From contig JAUQQN010000003.1 in the NCBI GenBank assembly GCA_030549845.1, positions 1 to 17,030 of the forward strand: 17,030 bases of DNA. Reading direction: 5' to 3'. The notes below the pieces were generated by a model. That model made no database searches. It saw nothing but the letters and a program-made list of their open reading frames with translations, and had not been told where the DNA came from. The number at the start of each line of letters is the position of its first letter. Positions within the stretch are counted from its first letter, which is position 1. The DNA is from Patescibacteria group bacterium. Its GTDB lineage: Bacteria; Patescibacteriota; Minisyncoccia; UBA6257; HR35. Positions 1 through 17,030 of the stretch are shown piece by piece. Made by a program: the position numbers and the translations under genes.

Positions 1-2592
1 AAAGCTTGATGCTCCTAAATTATATGTATTATCAGAATAAGGAATAATATCTGAGTTTATATATCCTACAAAATTAATAGGAGTTGAGGTTGAAGCTCCT
101 AAAGTTGTAGAACCATATACATGTAATAAAGAAGTAGGTGTTGTAGTTCCTATTCCTATATTGCCATCATCTCTTACATATAATAATGGCTTATTAAGTG
201 AGTTTATTACTTTTAAAGAAAAAGTAGTATCACTGGAGCCAGCTCCCTTAATGAAAAGCTTAGTATTTGTATCTCTAAGAGGAACACCCCCAATCGAAAC
301 AGAACCATAATTATAGCCTGATAACCGCATTACTTCCACTTGAGGGCCATTATATCTCCATAACATGAATCTCATACTAACATATCTTGGCCCATAATCT
401 TCTGCTATAAACTGAATGCTTGCATCTGGAATTGTGGATCCATCACTAAATCTTCCTAAAAAATCTATTCCTGGTGGGTTAGCATTAGTATTGTGTAAAG
501 ACTTTAAAACTAAAGCTGTTCTTTGAACATTTCCTTCAACGGGCATCAGTAGTTCCAAGCTTGGCGTTGAAGTGTTTGAGCTTTTTATTGTAGTTGGAAT
601 GAGAAACCAAGATTTTCCACTACTTGATATTTTATTAATATAGGCAGTAGTAACCGTAGGAACAGTACCAGCAGTGGCTCCAGTTGAGGTAGTATAAGTA
701 TAAGAGGTAGCAGTTGTTGTAAAGTAATGATTTTGAGCATTAGAAGTGGTACCAGCATATAATCTATATTTAGCTGCGCCAATTACCGGTGACCAAGAGA
801 TAATAATAGCTTCACCTGCAGCTATGGTTATCGATACTTCTTGAGAACCAATTGTTGTACCTCCAGCTTCATCCTCTGCTACTACTTTAAAGTAATATGT
901 ACCAGACGGCAATGTCCCTCCAGTAGTTGTGGCAACAGTTACATTGGTAGGAGGTGGCATTTCAATAGCAAAATTCGAACCAGCAGAAATTGTTAATTTC
1001 TCTTGGGGTGCTATTGTTCCTATACCCACGTTACTGTTTAAATATAAACCTGACCCCCCCGCTTGAATCTCAAAGAATCTGCTTGTTTGTAGTTTAAAAT
1101 GAGAACCTCCAATGTCATGTCTTCCTAATTCTAGTGTACCAGCATAACTCCTGGATTCTAAATACAATCTTGGACTTTGACCAGAAAAGGATCCACTAAT
1201 CCCTCCCCACCCTCCTAAAAAAGCTCTATGATTACTATCTCCATAATAGAACCCGCCCGTAAATCCACCAACTGTTGATAGAGGAATATAAATTGTGCCA
1301 AATATTTCAGAAGAAGCAGGGGTAACGGTTAATTTTGCATTAGGATTAGTCATTCCGATGCCTACTCTTCCACTTTGGTCAATTGTAAGTACTGCTGTTG
1401 AGGGGAAGGTGGAAGTGGTAATTTTAAATTTGTTTGAATCTGAAATATCTACTCCTATTGTATATTGAGTAGAAGGAGTAATTCCTGTTCTAAATTGAAT
1501 TTGAGGAGAATATGTTGTTGAAGTTGCAGAAGTTATTGTAAGAATTGGTGATATATTTGTTGAATAGAGTTCTAATAAAGAAGTGGGTGTTGTTGTTCCT
1601 ATTCCTAATCTTTTATTATTATTATCCCAATAAAGATTAGAATTATCTTGAGAGATTAAACCATTATTTCCTGCAAATAATATAGAACCAGGAGTTAAGG
1701 AAGATAAGGCTAAGTTAGCAAATGTTGGTGAAGAGGTAGTTGAGATATCTTGTGGGGTAGATAGTATAATATTTGAACCTACAGAGGATATATTTATTTG
1801 ATTTGGTGTTCCTTGTAAAGTTAAAGCTCCTGTTAAAGAATTTAAGGATAATACTCCTGTATTAGATATTGTTGCTGTAGATGTTCCTGTTATTGATATT
1901 CCTGGGCCTGGTATAAGTAATGAAGTAATATCTTTATATTCTAAGCTTGTTCCTGTATTATTAACTCCTAATATTTGATTAGCTAAACCTAATGTATTAA
2001 GTCCTGTACCTCCTGAAGTTATAGAAAGAGGTGTTAAAAGTACAAGAGAATTAGCTGTTATACCTCCTGTAGCTAATATATTTCCTTGTACTGTAAGTTT
2101 TTCTGAAGGTGTTGTTGTTCCTATAGCTACTGAGTCTGTAATTGTTTGTAATCTAACTACATTTCCATCATCTGTCCAACCTCCTGCTGTAGATAATGTT
2201 ACATCTGCCCATTGAAGATTGCCATTACCTATATATTGTAGGAATTGATTAGGATTAGGAGGATTTGAAGGCCAAATATAAGATATTCCATTAAAAGTTG
2301 TAGTATTTGTTACTATTAATTCTCCTAATATTTTTACTGTTCCTGTATTAAAAGAAAGAAGATTATTATTAAGTTCTACTATTGTTGTAGTAGATATATA
2401 TGTAGGTAAAGGAGGAGATACTGTACAATTAGGATCACCTGGAGAGCAAGAAGGATCTAAGGTTTCTCCTGGTCTATAAGGAGAAATAGGGGGTGAGGAA
2501 TATACTAAGGAGTAGATAAAGAGGAAGATAGTTAAAAATAAGAAGAAAATTCCTATATTTTTGTTAATTTTTACTTTTACATTATTAGGCAT
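1..2592 (-). CDS. Giant secreted tail-fibre-like repeat protein, N-terminal 864 aa; the 3' end runs off the left edge of the window
   Basis: I translated the minus strand line by line. ATG at 2592..2590 is followed by 864 sense codons with no stop down to base 1. It is absent from the ORF track, presumably because there is no in-window stop. N-terminus MPNNVKVKINKNIGIFFLFLTIFLFIYSLVYS looks like a signal peptide or anchor, followed by PGETLDPSCSPGDPNCTV. An SGGTGLNTLG motif is present. There are five G/AIGT-type copies followed by a K/L-L-x-V-like motif: VAIGTTTPSEKLTV, LGIGTTTPTSLLEL, VGIGMTNPNAKLTV, VGIGTIAPQEKLTI, IGIGTTTPTSLLHV. One FN3-like segment is present (PPPTNVTV...ISWSPVIGAAKYRLYAG). 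The visible end is PYSDNTYNLGASSF. Confidence 0.85.
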   Translation of the reverse strand, partial: MPNNVKVKINKNIGIFFLFLTIFLFIYSLVYSSPPISPYRPGETLDPSCSPGDPNCTVSPPLPTYISTTTIVELNNNLLSFNTGTVKILGELIVTNTTTFNGISYIWPSNPPNPNQFLQYIGNGNLQWADVTLSTAGGWTDDGNVVRLQTITDSVAIGTTTPSEKLTVQGNILATGGITANSLVLLTPLSITSGGTGLNTLGLANQILGVNNTGTSLEYKDITSLLIPGPGISITGTSTATISNTGVLSLNSLTGALTLQGTPNQINISSVGSNIILSTPQDISTTSSPTFANLALSSLTPGSILFAGNNGLISQDNSNLYWDNNNKRLGIGTTTPTSLLELYSTNISPILTITSATSTTYSPQIQFRTGITPSTQYTIGVDISDSNKFKITTSTFPSTAVLTIDQSGRVGIGMTNPNAKLTVTPASSEIFGTIYIPLSTVGGFTGGFYYGDSNHRAFLGGWGGISGSFSGQSPRLYLESRSYAGTLELGRHDIGGSHFKLQTSRFFEIQAGGSGLYLNSNVGIGTIAPQEKLTISAGSNFAIEMPPPTNVTVATTTGGTLPSGTYYFKVVAEDEAGGTTIGSQEVSITIAAGEAIIISWSPVIGAAKYRLYAGTTSNAQNHYFTTTATSYTYTTSTGATAGTVPTVTTAYINKISSSGKSWFLIPTTIKSSNTSTPSLELLMPVEGNVQRTALVLKSLHNTNANPPGIDFLGRFSDGSTIPDASIQFIAEDYGPRYVSMRFMLWRYNGPQVEVMRLSGYNYGSVSIGGVPLRDTNTKLFIKGAGSSDTTFSLKVINSLNKPLLYVRDDGNIGIGTTTPTSLLHVYGSTTLGASTSTPINFVGYINSDIIPYSDNTYNLGASSF
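1054..1060. repeat. C7 (G7 on the coding strand) homopolymer inside the tail-fibre-like CDS
   Basis: Plus strand tgaCCCCCCCgc; coding strand CAA GCG GGG GGG TCA (QAGGS). This is one of only two G/C runs of 7 that I saw in the window. Confidence 0.9.
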
Positions 2593-2603
2593 TATTTAAA
2601 TTA

Positions 2604-6182: not shown

Positions 6183-7931
6183 TTATTTATTTCTTTTTTC
6201 TATCCTAATTTGTGAATCATAATATGAAATTCTATGTATACCGCCTATATAGATACCTGAAGAATCTACAGTTATTGCACTAGGGTAATCTTCTTGATCA
6301 GATGGATTTTCAATTTTATCCCATATTATATTTAAATTATCTTTCTGAATTTTTAATATTCTCCATTTCCTATCTCCGCCTTCAACTATAGAAGTTATAG
6401 TGTAAATATATTTATCAAAGACCCTAATTTTTCCTGATATATTATTTAAACTGCCTAATAAAGACAGGTTACTACTATTTCTTTTTTCTAATCTTTCACT
6501 TGTCATTACATAAATATTCCCACTATTATCTAAATCTAAGCTTACGAAGGGTTTGTTTGAGGTAGCATAGCTTATTAAGTTATTTAAATTATTTATATCT
6601 CTTTTTTCTAATCTTCCATATATTGACCCACAAGAAGGGTTATTCCAATTGAAATTCCCTACATAGCCTCCTATATATAAATAACTATCTTTCACAACAA
6701 TTTGTGGGTATATATCATAGTCAAAACAAAGACATGTATAACCCGAAGAGCAAGCAGCATAAGGAGTATGTGGATTTATTTGAATAGTTTGGACAGCTGT
6801 TAAATCACTTTTATTTAATTTAGTTATAACCCAATAATAATCTGACGTACCGCCTGCAGATGTATAAACTGTCCTTCTATTCCAGCCGGCTAGATATATA
6901 TAATTACTATCTTGAGCCATTGACCATACAGTTTCCATTGAAGAAATATTTACAGCGCTAACTAAGCTTCCATTTATTTTATCTCTCTTTTCAAGTCTAC
7001 CTGTAACTCCTGACCTCCCCTGCCTGCCCCCAATATAAATATAATCTCTATCTTCGATGACCCCTCCAAATACGCTATCAAAATCATAGGTATTATAATA
7101 AGGGTTTGGATCTGAAGTAGTAGACCATATTATCTCGCCATTTAGTTTTTTTCTTTTTTGAATTACCCATCGCCAATTATCATTTTCGTTTACTTTATTA
7201 TCACCTACTAAGTAAATATAATCATTATCTAAAGCGAGACCTTCGATATCATCCCATAGATTACCCCAATTTTCAGAAAAAGCCCACATTATTTCTCCTG
7301 AAGGTAAAAGTGCTAATTCAAAATCCATCGGAGCTAAGTTTTTATTATTACCAAATTCCAAAAGCCAATGTGCAGTTCCATTATCTTTTCCTGAAATACT
7401 ATCTATTCCTTTATTTTTTTCAGATTCTAAATTAGCTATTAATTCAAATTCTTTACCAGAAGTAGAAACAAAAAAAGCATAAAAATAATTTATATCATTA
7501 ATAGGATCAGTTGGTAGATTGTTTATTCTGAGAATAGGATTTTGAGAAAAATTAACTGGGATCCATCCTTCGCCATTTATATTTGAAGGGTCAGGAGAAC
7601 AATAATACTGATATCCTTGAGGAGGATCTGGTAAATCTGGGTAATCTACTTGACAATTAGTTGTTGCTGATTTAGAAGGTAATGATAAATATATGTAATT
7701 TGATCGTCCTAATGAAATCCTAGGGTCTTCAAGTAAAAAACTTTTCAAAATATTTTCAAGTTTAGAAAGGTTATTTACTCTTAAAAGGTCTCTTGATTCT
7801 TTTGAAAGCTTATCTTTTCTTAATAATTGTGTACTCAATCCTAATAAAGTTGTTACTAATATTAGAAAAATAACTACTTCTAAATAAGTGAACCCTCTTA
7901 AAATCTTCATCTTTTTAAAAAATTTTACCAA
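6183..7931 (-). CDS. Prepilin-type (type IV pilin/pseudopilin-like) protein fused to a roughly 7-bladed SBBP/NHL-like beta-propeller
   Basis: Class III signal motif MKILRG|FTYLEVVIFLILV with Glu at +5. The ORF-track start is a TTG at 7931; the ATG at 7910 gives the canonical short leader and is probably the true start. The pilin-like globular domain shares RVNNL..LE, GWIPVNF, LPTDPIN and GKEFELIANLE with the 12910..15150 protein. Seven repeats follow the pattern D.YIY(I/L).G ... (R/K)(L/I)EKR(D/N)..N(G/L)..(L/I) (GRLEKRDKINGSL, GRLEKRDINNLNNL, ERLEKRNSSNLSL, WVIQKRKKLNGEIIW, WRILKIQKDNLNIIW, ...). Confidence 0.85.
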   Translation of the reverse strand: MVKFFKKMKILRGFTYLEVVIFLILVTTLLGLSTQLLRKDKLSKESRDLLRVNNLSKLENILKSFLLEDPRISLGRSNYIYLSLPSKSATTNCQVDYPDLPDPPQGYQYYCSPDPSNINGEGWIPVNFSQNPILRINNLPTDPINDINYFYAFFVSTSGKEFELIANLESEKNKGIDSISGKDNGTAHWLLEFGNNKNLAPMDFELALLPSGEIMWAFSENWGNLWDDIEGLALDNDYIYLVGDNKVNENDNWRWVIQKRKKLNGEIIWSTTSDPNPYYNTYDFDSVFGGVIEDRDYIYIGGRQGRSGVTGRLEKRDKINGSLVSAVNISSMETVWSMAQDSNYIYLAGWNRRTVYTSAGGTSDYYWVITKLNKSDLTAVQTIQINPHTPYAACSSGYTCLCFDYDIYPQIVVKDSYLYIGGYVGNFNWNNPSCGSIYGRLEKRDINNLNNLISYATSNKPFVSLDLDNSGNIYVMTSERLEKRNSSNLSLLGSLNNISGKIRVFDKYIYTITSIVEGGDRKWRILKIQKDNLNIIWDKIENPSDQEDYPSAITVDSSGIYIGGIHRISYYDSQIRIEKRNK

Positions 7932-9002: not shown

Positions 9003-10580
9003 ATGGATAACAAATCTTATCTAAATCACATAGTGGAAGTATTAATAGCCATAATTTTACTTTCCCTTGTTATAATCCTCCCCTCTCCCTCTTTCTCCCA
9101 AACATCATATAAAGCAAAAATAGCTAATTATCCTATAACTATAGAACTTAAAAAAGAAGATAATAACAAGATTATAGGAAGATATAAGTATGATAAGGTA
9201 GGAAAATGGCTAAAACTTGAAGGAAAAATTCCTACTTCTTCTAATAGAGTAATAATCAATGAATATGATGAAAATGATAAAAATACAGGATATTTTATAG
9301 GAATATTATCTAAGGATAAAACAAGCATTAAACTATTAAGTTGGATAGATAAAATAAATAAGAATAGAAGATTAAAAGTATATTCTCCTTTAATTAGGTT
9401 GTTAGAAGAAAAATCTTCTAAGATTAGAAAATATAAGTTAGGGGATTATGATCGGATTTATAATATTTATCTTTCTATCTCTGAGAAGTATTCTAATATT
9501 GGGGTAAAATATGGAAGAAAAGATAATAAATATTATATCCAAATAAATGATAAAACTTATGGGCCTTATGATTATGTTCAAGAATTAACTTTCTCCCCTG
9601 ATAGCTCTAAGTATGGATTTATGTATAAAAAAGAGAATGAATATTATATTAATGAATATTATATTCAAATCAATGATAAAACTTATGGGCCCTATGATGA
9701 TGCTTGGTGGTTAACTTTCTCTCCTGATAGCTCTAAGTATGGATTTATGTATAAAAAAGAGAATGAATATTATATTAATGAATATTATATTCAAATCAAT
9801 GATAAAACTTATGGACCTTATGATAATGCTTGGTTGTTAATTTTCTCTCCTGATAGTTCTAAGTATATGTTTGTGTATAAAAAAGATAATAAAGCTTACA
9901 TTCAAATCAATGATAAAACTTATGGGCCCTATGATAATGCTTGGTGGTTAACTTTCTCTCCTGATAGTTCTAAGTATGGATTTGTGTATGAAAAAGATAA
10001 CAAATATTATATTCAAATCAATGATAAAACTTATGGGCCCCATGATAATGCTTGGGAGTTAACTTTCTCTCCTGATAGTTCTAAGTATGGATTTGTGTAT
10101 GAAAAAGATAATAAAGCTTACATTCAAATCAATGATAAAACTTATGGACCTTATGATAATGCTTGTTGGTTAACTTTCTCCCCTGATAGCTCTAAGTATG
10201 GATTTTGGTATAAAAAAGATGATAAATATTACATTCAATTAAATGATAAAACTTATGGACCTTATGATGATGCTTGGTGGTTAACTTTCTCTCCTGATAG
10301 CTCTAAGTATGGATTTATGTATAAAAAAGATGATAAATATTACATTCAATTAAATGATAAAACTTATGGGCCTTATGATTATGCTTGGTGGTTAACTTTC
10401 TCTCCTGATAGTTCTAAGTATGGATTTATGTATAAAAAAGGTAATAAAGAATATATTCAAATAAATGACAAAACCTATGGGCCTTATGATAAAGAAGCAA
10501 CTTTTACTTTTACAAAAGACAATAGAACATTTATAGGATATGTTAAGGGTAAAGATTTAATTATTGAAGAAATAGAATAA
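9003..10580 (+). CDS. Signal-anchored tandem-repeat protein with nine PD40-like (FSPD-motif, TolB-type beta-propeller-like) repeats
   Basis: N-terminal hydrophobic segment IVEVLIAIILLSLVIILPSPSFSQ. Eight near-identical units YYIQINDKTYGPYD.AWWLTFSPDSSKYGF.YKKDNK are followed by one degenerate unit. The F-S-P-D-(S/G)-x-K-x-x-F spacing and the 37-aa period resemble PD40 repeats. Confidence 0.85.
   Translation: MDNKSYLNHIVEVLIAIILLSLVIILPSPSFSQTSYKAKIANYPITIELKKEDNNKIIGRYKYDKVGKWLKLEGKIPTSSNRVIINEYDENDKNTGYFIGILSKDKTSIKLLSWIDKINKNRRLKVYSPLIRLLEEKSSKIRKYKLGDYDRIYNIYLSISEKYSNIGVKYGRKDNKYYIQINDKTYGPYDYVQELTFSPDSSKYGFMYKKENEYYINEYYIQINDKTYGPYDDAWWLTFSPDSSKYGFMYKKENEYYINEYYIQINDKTYGPYDNAWLLIFSPDSSKYMFVYKKDNKAYIQINDKTYGPYDNAWWLTFSPDSSKYGFVYEKDNKYYIQINDKTYGPHDNAWELTFSPDSSKYGFVYEKDNKAYIQINDKTYGPYDNACWLTFSPDSSKYGFWYKKDDKYYIQLNDKTYGPYDDAWWLTFSPDSSKYGFMYKKDDKYYIQLNDKTYGPYDYAWWLTFSPDSSKYGFMYKKGNKEYIQINDKTYGPYDKEATFTFTKDNRTFIGYVKGKDLIIEEIE
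9531..10577 (+). repeat. In-frame tandem DNA repeat array: 2 x 126 bp, 6 x 111 bp, plus one degenerate terminal unit
   Basis: Unit starts are 9531, 9657, 9783, 9894, 10005, 10116, 10227, 10338 and 10449. Units share long identical stretches such as caatgataaaacttatgg and ttaactttctctcctgatag.tctaagtatggattt. Confidence 0.9.
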
Positions 10581-12596: not shown

Positions 12597-12941
12597 ATGG
12601 TAAGAGTAAAAAGAGGAAAAATAAAAACAAAGAAAAGAAAAAAGTTGTTAAGATTAGCTAAGGGTTATAAATGGGGTAGAAAAAGTAAAGAGAAGTTTGC
12701 TAAAGAAGCTATTTTGCATGCATTTAAACATGCCTATGAAGGAAGAAAAAAGAAAAAAAGAGATTTTAGAAGATTATGGCAAATTAGGTTGAATGCATTT
12801 TTGAGAGAAAGAGGATTAAAGTATTCTACTTTTATAAAAAAACTAAAAGATAATAACATAAAGTTAAATAGAAAAATTTTAGCTGAGCTTTCTATGAATT
12901 ATCCTACAATTATGGAAGAAATCGTAAATTCTGTAAAATAG
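12597..12941 (+). CDS. rplT: 50S ribosomal protein L20
   Basis: MVRVKRGKIKTKKRKKLLRLAKGYKWGRKS...AYEGRKKKKRDFRRLWQIRLNA...LKYSTFIKKLKDNNIKLNRKILAEL is the characteristic L20 sequence. It starts 10 nt after the topA stop codon. Confidence 0.95.
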   Translation: MVRVKRGKIKTKKRKKLLRLAKGYKWGRKSKEKFAKEAILHAFKHAYEGRKKKKRDFRRLWQIRLNAFLRERGLKYSTFIKKLKDNNIKLNRKILAELSMNYPTIMEEIVNSVK

Positions 12942-15150
12942 GTTGTAATATTTTGAAAATATTTGAAAAGTTATTTAGTTGATATGGTAATGATAAACAG
13001 TTAGGGCAGTTTCCATTTTCATCTATTTTCATAATAAAACCTCCTTTGCTAAAGTTATATCCTGCGATTATTAAATCTTTATCTATTGCATTTATTATTT
13101 TGTTAAGAAAACTAGAGGGATATAGTTTATAAGTAGACAATTTTGCAGAAGATATAGATAATATTCCTTGATTATTATATTTACCTACTCCATAGAAACT
13201 GTTTTTATAATTAGCAAAAGATCTTATTTCTAAATTACAAAAACTTTCACAAATAGGTATAAAGTTATACATTTCATTATTTAAAATTTCAAAGCTATCT
13301 GGTTTTATTTTTATTACTCTATAATATAAATTATTATTTTCTTTAAATTTCACTAAAATATAATAACTATTTTCTATCTCTGAAGGTAGAATAGAAAGAG
13401 CTTCAGCATTTGATATCGTTAAACAATTTAATACATCACCACTATCATCAATTTTCCCTACCCATCCTTCAGCTAAGGTTTGTCCGACTAGAAGATAAAA
13501 AACATTCGATCCTTCTTGAAAGATTTTAATATCATTAAGTTTCTGGGGCGAATAACAGATACTGGATGAGGTTGAAACTCGATAATTAAAAATTTGGCCT
13601 GTTGAAGAACTGATTTTAAAAACATAAGCTGAACTTGTGGTCTCTCCTACTCCGATGTAATTACCATCACTTGTTCTTTCTAAAGATTTAATCGAAGAAT
13701 AATTTTCTAAAGTAGATGTGGAAATCCATTTTATTGATCCTGTAGAAGAAATTTTTACTGCTAAGGCGGTATTTTCATAAAAACCCCCAAAAATATAATG
13801 ATCAACATATTTATCTCCATTTTCATCTACTGGTAATACAGAAATAAATATACTTGTTGTTACATTCTGTAGGTTAATAGTAGAAGATAAAAGAACATTA
13901 CCAAATACATCAATTTTTGCCCACCATGGAAGTGTAGTTGTAGAATTAATCTTTTTGCCTCCTGCTACGATATAATATTTTTCAAATTTTTCATCAGAGA
14001 TTTTAACATCATAAGGATAAGTATCTAAACCAAAAAACCGTATCCAAGGTTCTGTATTAAAAGGACAACCATAGGCTTCCATTTCACAAACATGAGCATT
14101 TGATCCCCAACCTACAGCCCATGCATTTGTTATATCATTAATAGAAGTAGTTGTGAAATCATAACATTCTCTATATGGGCTTTCAATCCCTGATGTCCAT
14201 GTGGCATTTTTATAATATTTAATATATGGAGCATTCCCTTGTGCGCTAAAGGATGAATATACTTTTAGATAAGAAAGAAAGTAAGGCCTACTGAATTTAT
14301 GTGCTACATAATAAGTAAGAATTGATAATGAAGTGGAAGTGGACCCATCATGAACAGCTGTAGTATCAGTAGGGATAACTTCATTATTATTATCGAACAA
14401 AAGCCATTGGCCTTCAGTAATTTTTATAGGATTCAAACAAGAAAAACTAGCACCATTTGGGTAACTAGGAAATTTTAGTATCGGAGCTTGCTTACAGGTT
14501 GTAGTAGTTATTTCACCATATAATCTATTTCCAACTATTAAACATTTATTGGTCCCAGCCTCATAAATTTCATTATCACTTCCTCCATCTTTTGAAGTTT
14601 TATCTTGTTTTCCTCCATATTTGTTTTCTGAATATTCTAAGTTTGCATTTAATTCAAATTCCTTTGTGCCTCTTGAAAATGCATAAGTATAAAAAAATCC
14701 TGAAGAGTAAGAGTTGATTGGATCAATAGGTAAATAAGTTATTGGCGATGTTTTTAGCTCAGTAAAATTTATGGGGATCCAACCTAAGCCATTTATTTCT
14801 CTTAACAAAGTAGATGAAGAATTCTGAATAATATTCCAAGTTTTACCATTAGCATCTGTAATTGTTGTTGAAGGAATGGGTTCTTTATCATAAGGAATAG
14901 ATACAAAAATTGAAGGAAATGCTTCGTCATAACCTGTAGAATTGTAATTACCATCTAAATCAGCATAAGGGTTTGTTAAAAGATAAGCATTAATTGCAAG
15001 CTCAAGATTTTTAAGATCATTTACCCTTTGAAAGTCTCTATTTCTTTTAAAAAGCTCTATAGGATTAAGAAAATAAAAAAGAATACCCAGAACTGATATT
15101 ATAGCGGTTAATACTATTAAAATTTCAATTAAAGTAAAACCGCTTTTCAT
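12910..15150 (-). CDS. Prepilin-type protein with a pilin-like globular domain, a discoidin/jelly-roll-like middle domain and a roughly 7-bladed SBBP/NHL-like beta-propeller (746 aa)
   Basis: Leader MKSG|FTLIEILIVLTAI with Glu at +5. RVNDLKNLE, GWIPINF, LPIDPIN and TKEFELNANLE are collinear with the 6183..7931 protein. The middle segment ends ...HVCEMEAYGC, which resembles an F5/8 type C domain end. Blade-like repeats include YYIVAGG...WWAKIDVFGNVL, HYIFGGF...LAVKISSTGSIKW, NYIGVGE...YVFKISSSTGQI, YLLVGQT...WVGKIDDSGDVL and LIIAGYN...GFIMKIDENGNC. Confidence 0.85.
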   Translation of the reverse strand: MKSGFTLIEILIVLTAIISVLGILFYFLNPIELFKRNRDFQRVNDLKNLELAINAYLLTNPYADLDGNYNSTGYDEAFPSIFVSIPYDKEPIPSTTITDANGKTWNIIQNSSSTLLREINGLGWIPINFTELKTSPITYLPIDPINSYSSGFFYTYAFSRGTKEFELNANLEYSENKYGGKQDKTSKDGGSDNEIYEAGTNKCLIVGNRLYGEITTTTCKQAPILKFPSYPNGASFSCLNPIKITEGQWLLFDNNNEVIPTDTTAVHDGSTSTSLSILTYYVAHKFSRPYFLSYLKVYSSFSAQGNAPYIKYYKNATWTSGIESPYRECYDFTTTSINDITNAWAVGWGSNAHVCEMEAYGCPFNTEPWIRFFGLDTYPYDVKISDEKFEKYYIVAGGKKINSTTTLPWWAKIDVFGNVLLSSTINLQNVTTSIFISVLPVDENGDKYVDHYIFGGFYENTALAVKISSTGSIKWISTSTLENYSSIKSLERTSDGNYIGVGETTSSAYVFKISSSTGQIFNYRVSTSSSICYSPQKLNDIKIFQEGSNVFYLLVGQTLAEGWVGKIDDSGDVLNCLTISNAEALSILPSEIENSYYILVKFKENNNLYYRVIKIKPDSFEILNNEMYNFIPICESFCNLEIRSFANYKNSFYGVGKYNNQGILSISSAKLSTYKLYPSSFLNKIINAIDKDLIIAGYNFSKGGFIMKIDENGNCPNCLSLPYQLNNFSNIFKILQPILQNLRFLP

Positions 15151-17030
15151 TTATAAGCCCTTATCCTACCTTCTAAAAATATACTATCATCATAAAGATT
15201 AAGATGAAGAATTCTTGCGTACACATCGAAATCTTTAATGTTAGCTTGGAACCATTCTGCACTTTCTACTTGAGCAGAGCCTGGGATACCTAATCCGATA
15301 TATGATCTAGCATCATCTAAATCAAAAGGTATATACTGTAAGGCAGTTAAATAGATTTTTGAACAAGTTTTAGCTACTTGTATAGTAGTTGTACCTATAG
15401 AACTAATTTGGATCATCGAGTTTATTTGATTATCGCAATATATCTTTATCATTCCAGCTTGCACTAAGTTTCTTACAATTAACTTAAGATGGTTAACATA
15501 AGTTGGGCTACCAAAATCTAGTTTCCAGACCAAATATTCAGTATAATTAGCTACTGAATTATAGCCTGTTATTCTAGAAATCCAAGTACGTAATATATAT
15601 CCTGTATAATCAATTTCATTTTCTCGAGTTGTGATAGCGATAGCATCACTTAATGGACCTTCTCCTATCTCATTTACCGCAGAAACTTTATAATAATAAG
15701 TCGTACTTGTAGATAGATTTTGATCAACATAAGTATTTGTTAAAGGTTGTGCTACCAAGGTATAATCAACCCCATTTGTGCTTCTAAAAAGTTTATAATA
15801 AAGAATTGGATAACCTCCGGTACAGAGAGGATTTTCAGGATAAGTTATGCAATTCCAATTTAATCGAACAAAGTTACTCCCATAATCTGAAACCATTATT
15901 GAAAATTGGCCTGGTTTTGTCCCTGCTTTTTTGCACACTTCATTACTGTATCCACTTTCTCCATTTGCATTTTTAGCTGTTACAACATAACAATAAGTCC
16001 TTCCGATATTTACATTTGTATCTTGAAAAGAAAGTTGAGAAGATGAAACTATTGCATAAGGTGTATTTGAATAGCTTTGTCCTAATTCTTTTCTATAAAT
16101 TCTATATTCTGTTATTGAAGAACCACCATTATCTGCAGGTGGGATCCAAGAAAGATTTAATACTCTATCACCTACTGTAATATTTAAGCTCTGTGGGGGT
16201 GATGGAAGCCCATAAGGAGTACCAGAAGCTATATTACTATAAGATCCTTCACCAACGCTATTTACTCCAGAAACAGCATAGTAATATGCTCTGCCAGGAG
16301 TTAGATTCTGGTGGATATAGGTTCGAATTGATGAAGAAGTTGTCGCTATTCTATAGTATTGATTATTAATAACTTGATATACATTGTAATAGAGAATAGG
16401 TAGCGAACTTGAAGCTTGAGTCCAGGATAAAGTGTTTTGTCTATTTCCAGGAGTTACTGTAAGAGACGGAGCTCCAGGAACACCAGGAGCTATGCATGCT
16501 TCGTTAGACGGTAAACTTTCACCTATAGAATTTACAGCTGTAACCTTATAACAATATTTATCATCTGGAGAACCTAAATTATCATAAAAATAAAAGTTTG
16601 TTGTGGTACCTGCAAGATTATAACTTCCTGAATCTGTAATTTTTCTGTAGATGTTATAATAAAGAATTGTACTTCCACCATTGGATGATGGTTCTTCCCA
16701 AGTTAAGTATCTTATAGGTATGGGATTATATGTAACAGTTAAATTTCTAGGAGGGGATGGCACTGTTGTTGTATTTATTGTACATGAAATTAACTCTATT
16801 TGATTAATTGTATTTTTAATATCATTCGATAACAAGTTAAGATTACGAATAGATAATGCAGATAAATCAAGATTTAAAAGGGTGTTTTTATCAATTTCTG
16901 TTGTAACTATTTGATTCCTTACGTTTTGAACTATAATGGAAGTGGTAGGATAGTTATTGGATTGGAATTTGAGATCAGGTTTATAAGGGATTCCATAAGT
17001 TGCTGGATCTAATTTTATTAAAACAATATC
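15147..17030 (-). CDS. Surface protein with four tandem fibronectin type III domains and a 159-aa C-terminal domain; the 5' end is open at the right window edge
   Basis: The track ORF starts at a TTG (16835), but I checked the same frame and it stays open for all 65 codons from 17030 (DIVLIKLDPATYGIPYKPDLKF...SIRNLN-LLSNDIK). The true start is therefore probably outside the window. FN3 hallmarks occur four times, for example PSPPRNLTV...LTWEEP..NGGS.ILYYNIYR...YCYKVTAVNSIGES and P.SLNITVGDRVLNLSWIPPADNGGSSITEYRIYR...YCYVVTAKNANGES. The stop TGA overlaps the next ATG as ATGA at 15147..15150. Confidence 0.85.
   Translation of the reverse strand, partial: DIVLIKLDPATYGIPYKPDLKFQSNNYPTTSIIVQNVRNQIVTTEIDKNTLLNLDLSALSIRNLNLLSNDIKNTINQIELISCTINTTTVPSPPRNLTVTYNPIPIRYLTWEEPSSNGGSTILYYNIYRKITDSGSYNLAGTTTNFYFYDNLGSPDDKYCYKVTAVNSIGESLPSNEACIAPGVPGAPSLTVTPGNRQNTLSWTQASSSLPILYYNVYQVINNQYYRIATTSSSIRTYIHQNLTPGRAYYYAVSGVNSVGEGSYSNIASGTPYGLPSPPQSLNITVGDRVLNLSWIPPADNGGSSITEYRIYRKELGQSYSNTPYAIVSSSQLSFQDTNVNIGRTYCYVVTAKNANGESGYSNEVCKKAGTKPGQFSIMVSDYGSNFVRLNWNCITYPENPLCTGGYPILYYKLFRSTNGVDYTLVAQPLTNTYVDQNLSTSTTYYYKVSAVNEIGEGPLSDAIAITTRENEIDYTGYILRTWISRITGYNSVANYTEYLVWKLDFGSPTYVNHLKLIVRNLVQAGMIKIYCDNQINSMIQISSIGTTTIQVAKTCSKIYLTALQYIPFDLDDARSYIGLGIPGSAQVESAEWFQANIKDFDVYARILHLNLYDDSIFLEGRIRAYK
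15627..16760 (-). other. Array of four FN3 domains (about 94 aa each) within the 15147..17030 CDS
   Basis: Boundaries were derived from the protein coordinates (aa 26-403 of the track ORF) using the repeated P..P..L ... W ... Y.(I/V)YR ... Y.Y.V.A.N..GE pattern. Confidence 0.75.

What the first reader, a model, noticed from the sequence alone, without database searches (positions are those of the whole stretch)
12910..17030. Candidate two-gene surface module: FN3-stalk protein translationally coupled (ATGA) to the pilin-discoidin-propeller gene
The FN3 protein ends RAYK-TGA, and the A of its stop lies within the ATG of the pilin gene (ATGA at 15147..15150), with an AAGGG 7 nt upstream of that ATG. 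This is a classic arrangement for stoichiometric co-expression. The upstream protein has four FN3 spacer domains and a 159-aa C-terminal domain of unknown fold. Its N-terminus lies outside the window, so it may itself carry a pilin or signal leader. Taken with the other three large surface genes, this looks like an uncharacterised pilus-associated attachment apparatus. That would fit an epibiotic or host-dependent small-genome bacterium. The functional interpretation is inference only.
Basis: inference. Interest (0 to 1): 0.7.

Follow-up and report, generated by a model that had tools for sequence, protein, structure and literature searches.

The report
Coupled pair of giant modular pilins
Two neighbouring genes of an ultra-small (Patescibacteria) bacterium both encode type IV pilus subunits carrying large adhesion-type domains, one about 1,900 residues long, and the pair is conserved in every relative examined, so it is most likely a pilus-borne device for attaching to a host cell.

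Summary
The ATGA stop/start overlap is at 15147-15150. The upstream frame stays open to the window edge and carries four FN3 domains plus a 159-aa C-terminal domain. The downstream 746-aa protein starts with a prepilin signal (MKSG|FTLIE).

New here: the "FN3-stalk protein" is the last third of a giant modular type IV pilin of about 1,900-1,950 aa. All five full-length orthologues start with a prepilin signal. Their ~200-aa pilin module is 44-51% identical to that of the downstream protein, so the two genes are old paralogues.

The pair lies between cysS and rplT-topA in all 12 lineages examined. These are Paceibacteria/Parcubacteria-type relatives with 35-97% identity in the small pilin. Eight lineages keep the ATGA overlap and four have gaps of 0-13 nt. 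The AAGGG "Shine-Dalgarno" is probably chance.

The small pilin is a pilin module, then a CBM32/discoidin-fold domain, then a beta-propeller. Scaffold domains are conserved and the distal domains diverge fastest.

Best reading (inferred): these are co-expressed minor pilins displayed at a type IV pilus tip as host adhesins. This resembles S. sanguinis PilB/PilC and Saccharibacteria PilX1/PilX2. It is a new variant of a known kind, not a new system.

The parts
15147..17030 (-). 3' third (627 codons plus stop) of a giant modular type IV pilin gene. The 5' two thirds lie beyond the window edge.
   Evidence: The frame is open to the window edge. A 97%-identical copy in L003 extends to at least 1570 aa. 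It is collinear with full-length orthologues of 1933 aa (L005), 1914 aa (L038), 1940 aa (L046), 1942 aa (L047) and 1953 aa (L048), all with prepilin N-termini.
16761..17030 (-). Last ~90 residues of the central beta-propeller-like repeat region plus a linker, upstream of the FN3 block.
   Evidence: Aligns with L003 residues 944-1033, downstream of the 'GN(I/V)xWAKxxGG' repeats. Those repeats are weakly similar to the propeller of the 746-aa protein (E 0.001) and to PQQ_2 (E 0.15). The propeller fold is inferred, not modelled.
15627..16760 (-). Four tandem FN3 domains at 16479-16760, 16206-16478, 15915-16205 and 15627-15914.
   Evidence: Pfam fn3 at 99.6 bits, 4 stretches. Boundaries come from a local FN3 profile. 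The same block of four (five in L008) is present in the orthologues.
15150..15626 (-). 159-aa C-terminal domain of the giant pilin; fold unknown. It is the fastest-diverging part of the protein (22-29% identity between orthologues, against 48-59% for the FN3 blocks).
   Evidence: No Pfam hit, no match among PDB sequences, and only the 92%-identical copy found among 1.84 billion representatives. The shared motifs WKLDFGxPxY(I/V), (L/I)KIxC and KTCSKIY are in the alignment.
15147..15150 (-). ATGA: stop of the giant pilin gene overlapping the start of the 746-aa pilin gene.
   Evidence: The same overlap occurs in 8 of 12 lineages; the others have gaps of 0-13 nt.
15158..15162 (-). AAGGG 7 nt before the ATG. 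Present, but probably not a functional Shine-Dalgarno.
   Evidence: One search shows it. It is not conserved at orthologous junctions, and no other gene start checked in the window has an SD-like motif.
12910..15150 (-). 746-aa modular type IV pilin gene (pilin module, discoidin-like domain, beta-propeller, C-terminal tail).
14494..15150 (-). Pilin module (aa 1-219). It has the leader MKSG, mature end F1-T-L-I-E5, a ~21-aa hydrophobic helix, a globular part, and an invariant Cys203...Cys219 pair.
   Evidence: TIGR02532 scores 17.3 against a cut-off of 16.3. It is 49% identical (E 3e-48) to the N-terminus of the giant pilin of L005. The AF2 model shows helix 7-59 followed by strands, but pLDDT is low after residue 110.
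14056..14430 (-). Galactose-binding-like (discoidin/CBM32-type) beta-sandwich, aa ~241-365.
   Evidence: The AF2 domain model has pLDDT 85.7. Foldseek against PDB returns APC10/Doc1, CBM32 modules, factor VIII C2, neuropilin b1 and the DDR2 discoidin domain, with E 9e-6 to 1e-3 and TM 0.5-0.6. There is no Pfam hit by sequence.
13006..14055 (-). Beta-propeller, aa ~366-715.
   Evidence: AF2 pLDDT is ~80 over residues 240-620. Foldseek against PDB returns CylK, BamB, YncE and WD40 propellers at E 3e-9 to 1e-6.
12913..13005 (-). Conserved C-terminal tail: CxxC followed by ~25 residues ending LRFLP.
   Evidence: Invariant C715, C718, F744 and P746. The last ~10 codons overlap rplT on the other strand, which probably constrains them. 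The rest of the tail is unexplained.
12910..12941 (.). 32-nt convergent overlap of the 3' ends of the pilin gene and rplT.
   Evidence: The same 29-38-nt overlap occurs in L005, L038, L046, L047 and L048.
6183..7931 (-). Third paralogous modular pilin in the window (582 aa as listed). The likely start is the ATG at 7910, giving MKILRG|FTYLE. It has the same pilin module plus propeller-like repeats.
   Evidence: 34% identity over 200 aa to the pilin module of the 746-aa protein, E 4e-23; sequence. It is absent from the corresponding recR/pheS site in L006.

Best explanation
The region holds two co-directional, almost certainly co-transcribed genes for paralogous modular type IV pilins of a Patescibacteria (Paceibacteria/Parcubacteria-type) bacterium.

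The upstream gene, of which the window holds only the last third, encodes a giant pilin of about 1,900-1,950 aa. Its order of parts is: prepilin signal and ~200-aa pilin module, two Ig-like domains, five FN3, a ~470-aa propeller-like region, four FN3, and a rapidly evolving ~160-aa C-terminal domain. The downstream gene encodes a 746-aa pilin: pilin module, discoidin/CBM32-fold domain, beta-propeller.

Proposed mechanism:
- One mRNA carries both genes.
- A ribosome terminating at the TGA of the giant gene restarts at the overlapping ATG. In this SD-poor genome that ties synthesis of the second pilin to that of the first.
- A prepilin peptidase cleaves both products after Gly.
- Both products insert by their N-terminal helices into a type IV filament. 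Their bulk means they can only fit at its tip, probably as a small complex of minor pilins.
- From the tip, the lectin-like domain, the propellers and the distal C-terminal domain contact a host cell surface. The FN3/Ig array acts as a spacer of some tens of nanometres.

Shown: the gene structures, the prepilin signals, the paralogy, the domain folds of the small pilin, conservation of the pair and junction, and the pattern of domain divergence. Inferred: coupling, processing, assembly into a pilus, tip location, complex formation and host binding.
For: Prepilin signal: TIGR02532 is above its cut-off for the 746-aa protein. G-1/F+1/E+5 are invariant in 11 homologues. All five full-length giants carry the same signal.

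Paralogy: the pilin modules are 44-51% identical between giant and small, 48-55% among giants and 50-63% among small pilins.

Pair and synteny: the order cysS<-|giant->small->|<-rplT<-topA is present wherever enough flank is held, and giant-small adjacency holds in all 12 lineages examined. ATGA occurs in 8 of 12 and the gap never exceeds 13 nt. No terminator-like site lies between the genes and promoter-like sites show no excess.

Folds: CBM32/discoidin-like and beta-propeller.

Divergence: pilin, Ig and FN3 modules are 48-63% identical, against 31-36% for the propellers and 22-29% for the C-terminal domain. That pattern is expected if the distal modules bind variable ligands.

Precedents: modular pilins are widespread, occur in CPR phyla and include FN3 modules (PMC8179133). 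S. sanguinis PilA/PilB/PilC form a tip complex of minor pilins with adhesive modules (PMC9934059). In Saccharibacteria TM7x the minor pilins PilX1 (jelly roll) and PilX2 (7-bladed propeller) have extra C-terminal domains, and deleting pilX2 halves host binding. Pilus machinery genes are well conserved across Patescibacteria (PMC12206443).
Against: No pilB/C/D/M/N/O/T gene lies in the window or in the ~10 kb on either side of the pair that was held for the longest loci. A matching machinery in this organism is therefore assumed, not seen.

The globular part of the pilin module was modelled with low confidence (pLDDT 25-35 for residues 111-224).

The N-terminus of the window's own giant gene was not recovered. 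It is inferred from orthologues.

In one relative (L004) the giant gene is broken by at least five frame changes while the small pilin is intact. If real, the small pilin can persist without its partner.

Four lineages lack the overlap, so strict termination-reinitiation is not universal.

There are no expression or interaction data.
Confidence: 0.6

Rival explanations
1. The class III signal serves only as an export and anchoring route. After export the two proteins stay anchored in the cytoplasmic membrane by their N-terminal helix, or form a short surface assembly like the archaeal bindosome. They would then act as cell-body adhesins or a surface coat rather than as subunits of an extended pilus.
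For: The locus is far from any pilus machinery gene and sits among housekeeping genes. A ~1,900-aa subunit is far larger than any pilin shown to be assembled; the largest noted in the 2021 survey is 860 aa. The FN3/Ig array alone could span an envelope layer without a pilus. The archaeal precedent is from general knowledge of Sulfolobus sugar-binding proteins with class III signals, not tested here.
Against: The ~200-aa module after the signal is conserved at 44-63% identity and also occurs as a stand-alone ~200-aa pilin next to rplT in L009. That is more than a simple anchor would need. Glu5 is invariant. Orphan pilin loci away from the machinery are normal, for example TM7x loci three and four.
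Confidence: 0.2
2. The two genes are neighbours only because they arose by tandem duplication. They work independently, perhaps on different filaments or at different times, and the ATGA overlap is a by-product of genome compaction rather than a device for matched expression.
For: The pilin modules are paralogous. Genes throughout the window are packed with gaps or overlaps of a few bases. Four lineages have lost the overlap. L004 keeps an intact small pilin next to a broken giant gene.
Against: The duplication predates the divergence of all 12 lineages, yet adjacency, order and orientation were never disturbed and the gap never exceeds 13 nt. The small pilin's start sits inside or directly against the upstream ORF, with no SD and no promoter-like excess. 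Its translation therefore most plausibly depends on ribosomes arriving from upstream.
Confidence: 0.15
3. They are minor (pseudo)pilins of a competence pilus or a type II secretion-like pseudopilus, as the database name 'type II secretion system protein' suggests. Their role would be DNA uptake or protein export rather than adhesion.
For: NCBI and JGI name homologues 'type II secretion system protein' or 'pseudopilin PulG'. There are weak N-terminal matches to ComGC/ComGD/GspG models. Large DNA-binding minor pilins such as ComZ are mentioned in PMC8179133.
Against: All ComG/Gsp equivalog scores are far below their cut-offs (15-18 bits against 70-89) and cover only the N-terminal helix. The extra modules are of adhesion or carbohydrate-binding type: FN3, Ig, CBM32-like fold and propeller. 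From general knowledge, not tested here: Patescibacteria are not known to have an outer membrane for a T2SS to cross.
Confidence: 0.05

Closest known systems
Modular minor pilins PilB (vWA module) and PilC (Ig plus ConA-like lectin module) of Streptococcus sanguinis type IV pili, which form the tip complex PilABC (PMC8179133, PMC9934059)
   Same: They have a class III signal and a small pilin module with bulky adhesion or lectin modules grafted on the C-terminal side. Two different modular pilins are encoded together and are proposed to sit side by side at the filament tip. The host is monoderm-type. One partner here has a lectin-type fold, as PilC does.
   Different: There is no detectable sequence relationship beyond the N-terminal motif. 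The modules differ (FN3, Ig, propellers, CBM32-like, unknown C-terminal domain). The giant pilin is about four times longer than PilB or PilC. Here the two pilin modules are paralogues of each other. The genes lie outside any pil locus. No PilA-like small partner was identified.
Saccharibacteria (TM7x) minor pilins PilX1 (beta-jelly-roll C-terminal domain) and PilX2 (7-bladed beta-propeller), of which PilX2 is needed for normal host binding (PMC12206443)
   Same: Both are Patescibacteria and both have pilins carrying a jelly roll and/or a beta-propeller. The proposed role as the adhesin component of a host-tethering type IV pilus is the same.
   Different: PilX1 and PilX2 were reported without a predicted PilD signal. 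The proteins here have a canonical G|FTLIE signal. Here the jelly roll and the propeller sit in one protein and are paired with a giant FN3-rich pilin. The class differs (Paceibacteria-type, not Saccharimonadia).
PilY1/PilC tip adhesin of diderm type IVa pili
   Same: A beta-propeller is presented at the pilus tip for adhesion, with variable additional modules.
   Different: PilY1 is not a pilin and rides on a complex of four minor pilins. Here the propeller is fused directly to a pilin module. No Pfam hit to the PilY1/PilC propeller family appeared, and PilY1 was not among the top 50 structural matches.
Large minor pilins CofB/TcpB (type IVb) and GspK (T2SS)
   Same: They are minor pilins with extra domains that cap the filament and start its assembly (as summarised in PMC8179133).
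   Different: They have one or two extra domains and a few hundred residues in total. Their extra domains are unrelated, and no paired giant partner is known.

Membership tests
Type IV pilins (type 4 filament subunits) | Class III signal peptide: a short hydrophilic leader ending in Gly, then Phe+1 and Glu+5 | tested here: met
   The 746-aa protein reads MKSG|FTLIE. G4, F5, T6 and E9 are invariant in 11 homologues. TIGR02532 scores 17.3 bits against a cut-off of 16.3. For the giant gene the signal is seen only in orthologues: MNRPRG|FTLIE, MKKG|FTLIE, MKKG|FTLLE and MKQRG|FTLLE. Model scores there fall below the cut-offs (13.5 against 16.3; N_methyl 17.8 against 21.2).
Type IV pilins (type 4 filament subunits) | About 21 hydrophobic residues after the cleavage site, forming the N-terminal half of a long alpha-helix | tested here: met
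   The sequence is FTLIEILIVLTAIISVLGILFYF. The AF2 model gives helix 7-27 plus 31-59.
Type IV pilins (type 4 filament subunits) | Globular alpha/beta pilin head packed on the helix | tested here: inconclusive
   Strands at 80-111 follow the helix, but pLDDT is 25-35 for residues 111-224. The profile search of PDB sequences hit only the N-terminal helix of Geobacter pilins, at E 0.3. A conserved Cys203-Cys219 pair at the end of the module resembles the disulfide loop of type IVa pilins; that resemblance is from my own knowledge.
Type IV pilins (type 4 filament subunits) | Genome encodes a prepilin peptidase and an assembly ATPase/platform, and the protein is found in filaments | not testable with these tools
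   None is present in the window or in the flanks held for the related loci. PMC12206443 reports the machinery to be well conserved across Patescibacteria.
Modular pilins (sensu Raynaud et al. 2021) | An N-terminal pilin moiety plus at least one extra domain not specific to pilus biology | tested here: met
   The giant pilin orthologues carry nine FN3 domains (5 + 4); the Ig-like domains and a propeller-like region were seen in L005, L003 and L046. The small pilin has a CBM32/discoidin-fold domain and a beta-propeller.
Fibronectin type III domain (PF00041) | Score above the Pfam gathering threshold | tested here: met
   99.6 bits against 25, in four stretches in the window fragment. The orthologue L005 scores 200.5 bits in nine stretches.
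Discoidin / F5_F8_type_C / CBM32 (galactose-binding domain-like) | Sequence match to the family model | tested here: not met
   No Pfam hit for the domain in any of 10 homologues, even at E<=10, and no hit among PDB sequences.
Discoidin / F5_F8_type_C / CBM32 (galactose-binding domain-like) | Beta-sandwich fold superimposable on family members | tested here: met
   The model has pLDDT 85.7. Thirty-six PDB matches have E<=1e-3, dominated by APC10, CBM32, FVIII C2, neuropilin b1 and DDR2 discoidin domains, with TM 0.5-0.6. Sugar binding was not tested.
PilY1/PilC tip adhesins | PilY1/PilC-type C-terminal beta-propeller domain in a non-pilin protein | tested here: not met
   No Pfam match to that family. 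The protein is itself a pilin. The best structural matches are generic propellers: CylK, BamB, YncE and WD40.
T2SS pseudopilins GspG/GspH and competence pilins ComGC/GD/GF (database names of homologues) | Score above the NCBIfam equivalog cut-off | tested here: not met
   Scores are 12-18 bits against cut-offs of 70-89, and cover the N-terminal helix only.
Translationally coupled gene pair | Stop of the upstream gene overlaps or abuts the start of the downstream gene, on the same strand, with no intervening promoter or terminator | tested here: met
   ATGA in the window and in 8 of 12 lineages, with gaps of 0-13 nt in the rest. There is no terminator-like site between the genes and no promoter-like excess.
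Translationally coupled gene pair | Downstream translation depends on upstream translation | not testable with these tools
   This needs reporter fusions or ribosome profiling.

The most novel reading that the evidence does not exclude
The two paralogous pilins form a dedicated heteromeric cap on a type IV pilus. In this cap the ~1,900-aa subunit unfolds into a roughly 40-50 nm FN3/Ig tether ending in a hypervariable recognition domain, in effect a flexible fishing line mounted on a retractable filament. The smaller lectin-propeller subunit would provide a second, short-range contact. Together they would set host range in this Paceibacteria lineage. The hosts might be archaeal, because near-identical contigs turn up in four different archaeal MAGs and the named best FN3 matches are mostly archaeal proteins.
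Probability: 0.2. Interest if true: 0.75.

Novelty: new variant of a known kind. Interest (0 to 1): 0.5.

Why it matters
How ultra-small Patescibacteria recognise and hold their hosts is largely unknown outside a few cultured Saccharibacteria. In those, type IV pili and one propeller-bearing minor pilin are implicated.

This locus gives a concrete, conserved candidate for the recognition device in a different and largely uncultured class. It offers clear handles for experiment: two defined proteins, a lectin-fold domain, and fast-evolving distal domains that could be expressed and tested on glycan arrays or candidate host cells.

It also stretches the idea of a modular pilin. A subunit of about 1,900 residues with nine FN3 domains is more than twice the most extreme case noted in the 2021 survey (860 aa). 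That raises the question of how something so large passes through and is mounted on a type IV pilus machine.

There is a practical point too. These proteins are currently named 'type II secretion system protein' or 'fibronectin type III domain-containing protein', and they are filed under archaeal MAGs. Both labels mislead.

Tried and rejected
1. A homologue search with the whole 627-aa fragment returned only generic FN3 proteins (best 36% identity over the repeats). It did not find even the 97%-identical copy, so it said nothing about orthologues.
2. A word-index search with the 159-aa C-terminal domain found nothing. The exhaustive search of 1.84 billion representatives found only the 92%-identical copy plus three repetitive giant proteins with many short stretches, which I regard as compositional matches.
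3. Extending the window's own contig failed. The look-ups returned only two 5-kb Logan contigs, although the cluster table shows a 44,437-nt NCBI contig.
It gave only distant pilins.
The fold of that domain remains unknown. A profile-profile comparison with the discoidin-like domain of the small pilin gave 3.7% probability. My impression that the C-terminal domain is also a jelly roll, based on the 'WKLDFG...' motif, is unsupported.
7. A diversity-generating retroelement target was considered and rejected. No template/variable repeat pair involves this region. The only cross-match, 7410-7454 against 14620-14664, is the pilin-module paralogy.
8. Fusion of the two ORFs by programmed frameshifting at the overlap was rejected. 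There is no slippery heptamer, and the downstream protein needs its own N-terminal signal.
9. A Pam (donor-strand-exchange) pilus of CPR bacteria (bioRxiv 10.64898/2026.03.03.709456) was rejected. These proteins carry class III signals, which that system does not use.
10. A Shine-Dalgarno function for AAGGG was rejected as unsupported.


Full report
OBSERVATION

On the minus strand the window reads ...AGG ATA AGG GCT TAT AAA TGA, with ATG AAA AGC GGT TTT ACT starting one base before the stop. The four bases ATGA at 15147-15150 are therefore shared by the stop of the upstream ORF and the start of the 746-aa ORF. AAGGG lies at 15158-15162, 7 nt before the ATG.

The upstream frame has no stop up to the window edge (627 codons), so its start is outside the window. 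Pfam finds fn3 at 99.6 bits (cut-off 25) in four stretches. A local FN3 profile puts them at aa 91-184, 185-275, 276-372 and 373-468, leaving a 159-aa C-terminal domain. All stated facts are correct. The only slip is wording: the T and G of the stop lie inside the ATG.

WHAT THE WINDOW IS

The other genes are bacterial housekeeping genes: pheS, pheT, recR, dgkA, a short topA, rplT and five tRNAs. G+C is 22-38%.

Genomes that hold relatives of the 746-aa protein are titled Candidatus Pacebacteria, Candidatus Paceibacter, Patescibacteria group and Candidatus Parcubacteria.

THE DOWNSTREAM PROTEIN

- It begins MKSG|FTLIEILIVLTAIISVLGILFYF. This is a short leader ending in Gly, then Phe+1, Glu+5 and about 21 hydrophobic residues. 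It passes the NCBIfam prepilin model TIGR02532 (17.3 bits against 16.3).
- Matches to GspG/GspH/ComG models are far below their cut-offs and cover only this helix. The database name 'type II secretion system protein' is therefore not justified.
- Eleven full-length homologues were found with 35-97% identity, and the ten of them in alignment A1 align end to end with the window protein.
- An AF2 model built on that alignment is confident for residues 240-620. It shows a beta-sandwich followed by a beta-propeller. The PDB matches are generic propellers: CylK, BamB, YncE and WD40.
- The sandwich modelled alone has pLDDT 85.7. It matches APC10/Doc1, many CBM32 modules, factor VIII C2, neuropilin b1 and the DDR2 discoidin domain at E 9e-6 to 1e-3 and TM 0.5-0.6. 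No sequence model detects it.
- 'Pilin-discoidin-propeller' is therefore right at the fold level.
- The globular part of the pilin module was poorly modelled.

THE UPSTREAM PROTEIN

A 97%-identical locus (L003) extends the ORF to at least 1570 aa without reaching its start.

Five more distant loci hold complete orthologues of 1933, 1914, 1940, 1942 and 1953 aa (L005, L038, L046, L047, L048). The L003 and L005 proteins are collinear over about 1,600 residues at 43% identity. The L046 protein aligns with the window fragment over its C-terminal FN3 block at 35% identity.

Every complete orthologue starts with a prepilin signal: MNRPRG|FTLIE, MKKG|FTLIE, MKKG|FTLLE or MKQRG|FTLLE. Its first ~200 residues are 44-51% identical to the pilin module of the downstream protein, for example E 3e-48 (matrix).

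The conserved architecture, in order:
- pilin module;
- two Ig-like domains (HYDIN/VesB-type, 'choice-of-anchor D');
- five FN3;
- a ~470-aa region with 'GN(I/V)xWAKxxGG' repeats that resembles the small pilin's propeller only weakly (E 0.001);
- four FN3;
- the C-terminal domain.

The window's 'FN3-stalk protein' is thus the last third of a giant modular type IV pilin. Its prepilin N-terminus is inferred from orthologues and was not seen for the window's own gene.

A third gene in the window (6183-7931, probable start at 7910, MKILRG|FTYLE) has the same pilin module (34% identity, E 4e-23) followed by propeller-like repeats.

CONSERVATION OF THE PAIR

I examined 12 lineages:
- window/L003
- L004
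- L005
- L006
- L007/L038-L040
- L008
- L041
- L042
- L043
- L046
- L047
- L048

In all of them the giant gene, or its 3' end where the contig is short, lies directly upstream of the smaller pilin on the same strand.

Where enough flank exists, the order is cysS (divergent), giant pilin, small pilin, rplT (convergent, 3' ends overlapping by about 30 nt), topA.

The junction is an ATGA overlap in eight lineages. It is TAA directly followed by ATG in L005, a 3-nt gap in L047, a 9-nt gap in L008 and a 13-nt gap in L048.

In L046-L048 the downstream partner is 1080-1094 aa. It has the same pilin module and the same C-terminal CxxC-plus-tail, but a longer middle part.

The two pilin modules are more alike within each gene (48-63%) than between the genes (44-51%). 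The duplication therefore predates these lineages.

No terminator-like site separates the genes and promoter-like sites are at the level of shuffled sequence.

THE AAGGG

None of the other ten gene starts I checked in the window has a GGAGG-like motif at the right distance. AAGGG lies within codons and is absent from the orthologous junctions apart from the 97%-identical L003. I treat it as chance.

In a genome that does not rely on Shine-Dalgarno pairing, a start codon buried in the end of an upstream ORF is most plausibly served by terminating ribosomes. This is the argument for coupling, and it is inference.

DIVERGENCE PATTERN

Between orthologues, the pilin, Ig and FN3 modules are 48-63% identical. 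The propellers are 31-36% identical and the giant's C-terminal domain only 22-29%.

The C-terminal domain has no Pfam match, no match to PDB sequences, and no relative other than the near-identical copy among 1.84 billion representatives.

A conserved scaffold with fast-changing distal modules is what an adhesin facing variable ligands would show.

MECHANISM

Shown:
- two paralogous prepilin-type genes;
- their domain content;
- a conserved, tight junction;
- the conserved position of the pair in the genome.

Inferred:
- one transcript carries both genes;
- the second gene is translated by reinitiation;
- a prepilin peptidase cleaves both products;
- both insert through the N-terminal helix into a type IV filament;
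- both sit at the tip because of their bulk;
- the lectin-fold domain, the propellers and the distal domain bind a host surface;
- the eleven Ig/FN3 domains act as a spacer of some tens of nanometres.

The spacer estimate is mine, from the usual ~3.5-4 nm per domain.

The inference rests on three precedents:
- Modular pilins are widespread, occur in CPR phyla and include FN3 modules. They are argued to be tip-located (PMC8179133).
- S. sanguinis PilA, PilB and PilC form such a tip complex, with a vWA module and a lectin module (PMC9934059).
- In the Saccharibacterium TM7x the minor pilins PilX1 (jelly roll) and PilX2 (seven-bladed propeller) carry extra domains. Loss of pilX2 halves host binding, and pilus machinery genes are well conserved across Patescibacteria (PMC12206443).

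Weak points:
- No pilus machinery gene is in view.
- The pilin head is poorly modelled.
- The frame-shifted giant gene in L004 may mean that the small pilin can do without its partner.

RIVALS

- Class III signals might serve only for export and anchoring, giving cell-body adhesins. I give this 0.2.
- Adjacency might be a relic of tandem duplication with no functional link. I give this 0.15.
- The proteins might have a competence or secretion pseudopilus role. I give this 0.05.

I rejected a Pam donor-strand pilus, a diversity-generating retroelement target and a frameshift fusion, for the reasons listed under 'tried and rejected'.

COMPARISON AND NOVELTY

The proteins meet the testable criteria for type IV pilins (signal, helix) and for modular pilins. 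They do not meet those for GspG/H, ComG, PilY1 or the discoidin sequence family, although the fold of the last is matched.

They work like S. sanguinis PilB/PilC and TM7x PilX1/PilX2. They differ in four ways:
- size: about 1,900 aa, against 860 aa for the most extreme case in the 2021 survey;
- module set;
- being a pair of mutual paralogues with a conserved overlapping junction;
- lying at a housekeeping locus rather than a pil locus.

I found no paper describing this family, but the held library is incomplete.

Verdict: a real, conserved feature and a new variant of a known kind, of moderate interest.

Noticed in passing
whole window; cluster members: Copies at least 90% identical to the window's 746-aa pilin and pheS are deposited in NCBI MAGs labelled Thermoplasmata, Nitrososphaeria, Candidatus Methanomethyliaceae and Nitrososphaerota archaeon. 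The genes are plainly bacterial (rplT, recR, bacterial pheST) and their relatives are Patescibacteria. Either short AT-rich contigs of this bacterium are repeatedly mis-binned into archaeal genomes, or it co-varies in abundance with archaea. The named best matches to its FN3 repeats are also mostly archaeal proteins.
   Followed up: partly
L004:4221-10003: In one relative (JGI Ga0669692_01900) the giant pilin gene is collinear with the intact orthologue but switches reading frame at least five times. The neighbouring cysS, the small pilin, rplT and topA are intact. It is either a decaying pseudogene or an assembly error in repeats.
   Followed up: partly
window 12910-12941: The pilin gene and rplT converge and overlap by 32 nt at their 3' ends. 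The overlap is conserved in the relatives. It probably explains why the last residues of the pilin (LRFLP) are nearly invariant.
   Followed up: partly
window 12913-13005 (aa 716-746 of the small pilin): An invariant CxxC is followed by a ~25-residue, possibly helical tail. It is conserved even in the 1080-aa partners of more distant genomes. Only the last ~10 codons are covered by the rplT overlap; the rest is unexplained.
   Followed up: no
window 6183-7931 (-): This is a third modular pilin with the same ~200-aa pilin module (34% identity) plus propeller-like repeats, inserted between pheS and recR. The listed TTG start is probably wrong: the ATG at 7910 gives the leader MKILRG|FTYLE. The gene is absent from the same site in L006.
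   Followed up: partly
window 9003-10580 (+): This 525-aa membrane-anchored protein consists mostly of about nine tandem ~37-aa repeats (111-nt DNA period, up to 90% identical) with the motif YYIQINDKTYGPYD-AWWLTFSPDSSKYGF. It is probably another propeller-type surface protein.
   Followed up: no
window 1-2595 (-): This protein of more than 865 aa has a signal anchor and runs off the left edge. It has an FN3-like segment and recurring 'IGTTTPxxKLxV' motifs that reminded me of phage tail-fibre proteins (from memory, not tested). It has no Pfam or NCBIfam hit.
   Followed up: no
window, all gene starts: None of the gene starts examined has a Shine-Dalgarno-like motif; the upstream regions are simply A/T-rich. 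This organism seems to initiate translation largely without SD pairing.
   Followed up: partly
L038:11797-12915, L004:14196-15440, L007:5019-6248, L041:4190-5422: In several relatives a further modular pilin (prepilin motif plus a Laminin_G_3/ConA-like lectin domain, 372-414 aa) follows topA. The window has tRNA genes and the repeat protein at that position instead.
   Followed up: no
L009:3618-4226: In a more distant Patescibacteria genome a stand-alone ~200-aa pilin consisting only of this pilin module (46% identity) sits beside rplT (separated from it by one open frame on the opposite strand), with no giant gene upstream. It may represent the ancestral, unextended state of the locus.
   Followed up: no
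L008:2163-2190: The junction carries a ~13-nt tandem duplication (TTCTACAAATGAT / TTCTACAAATGA). It separates the stop from the start and so turns the ATGA overlap into a 9-nt gap.
   Followed up: no
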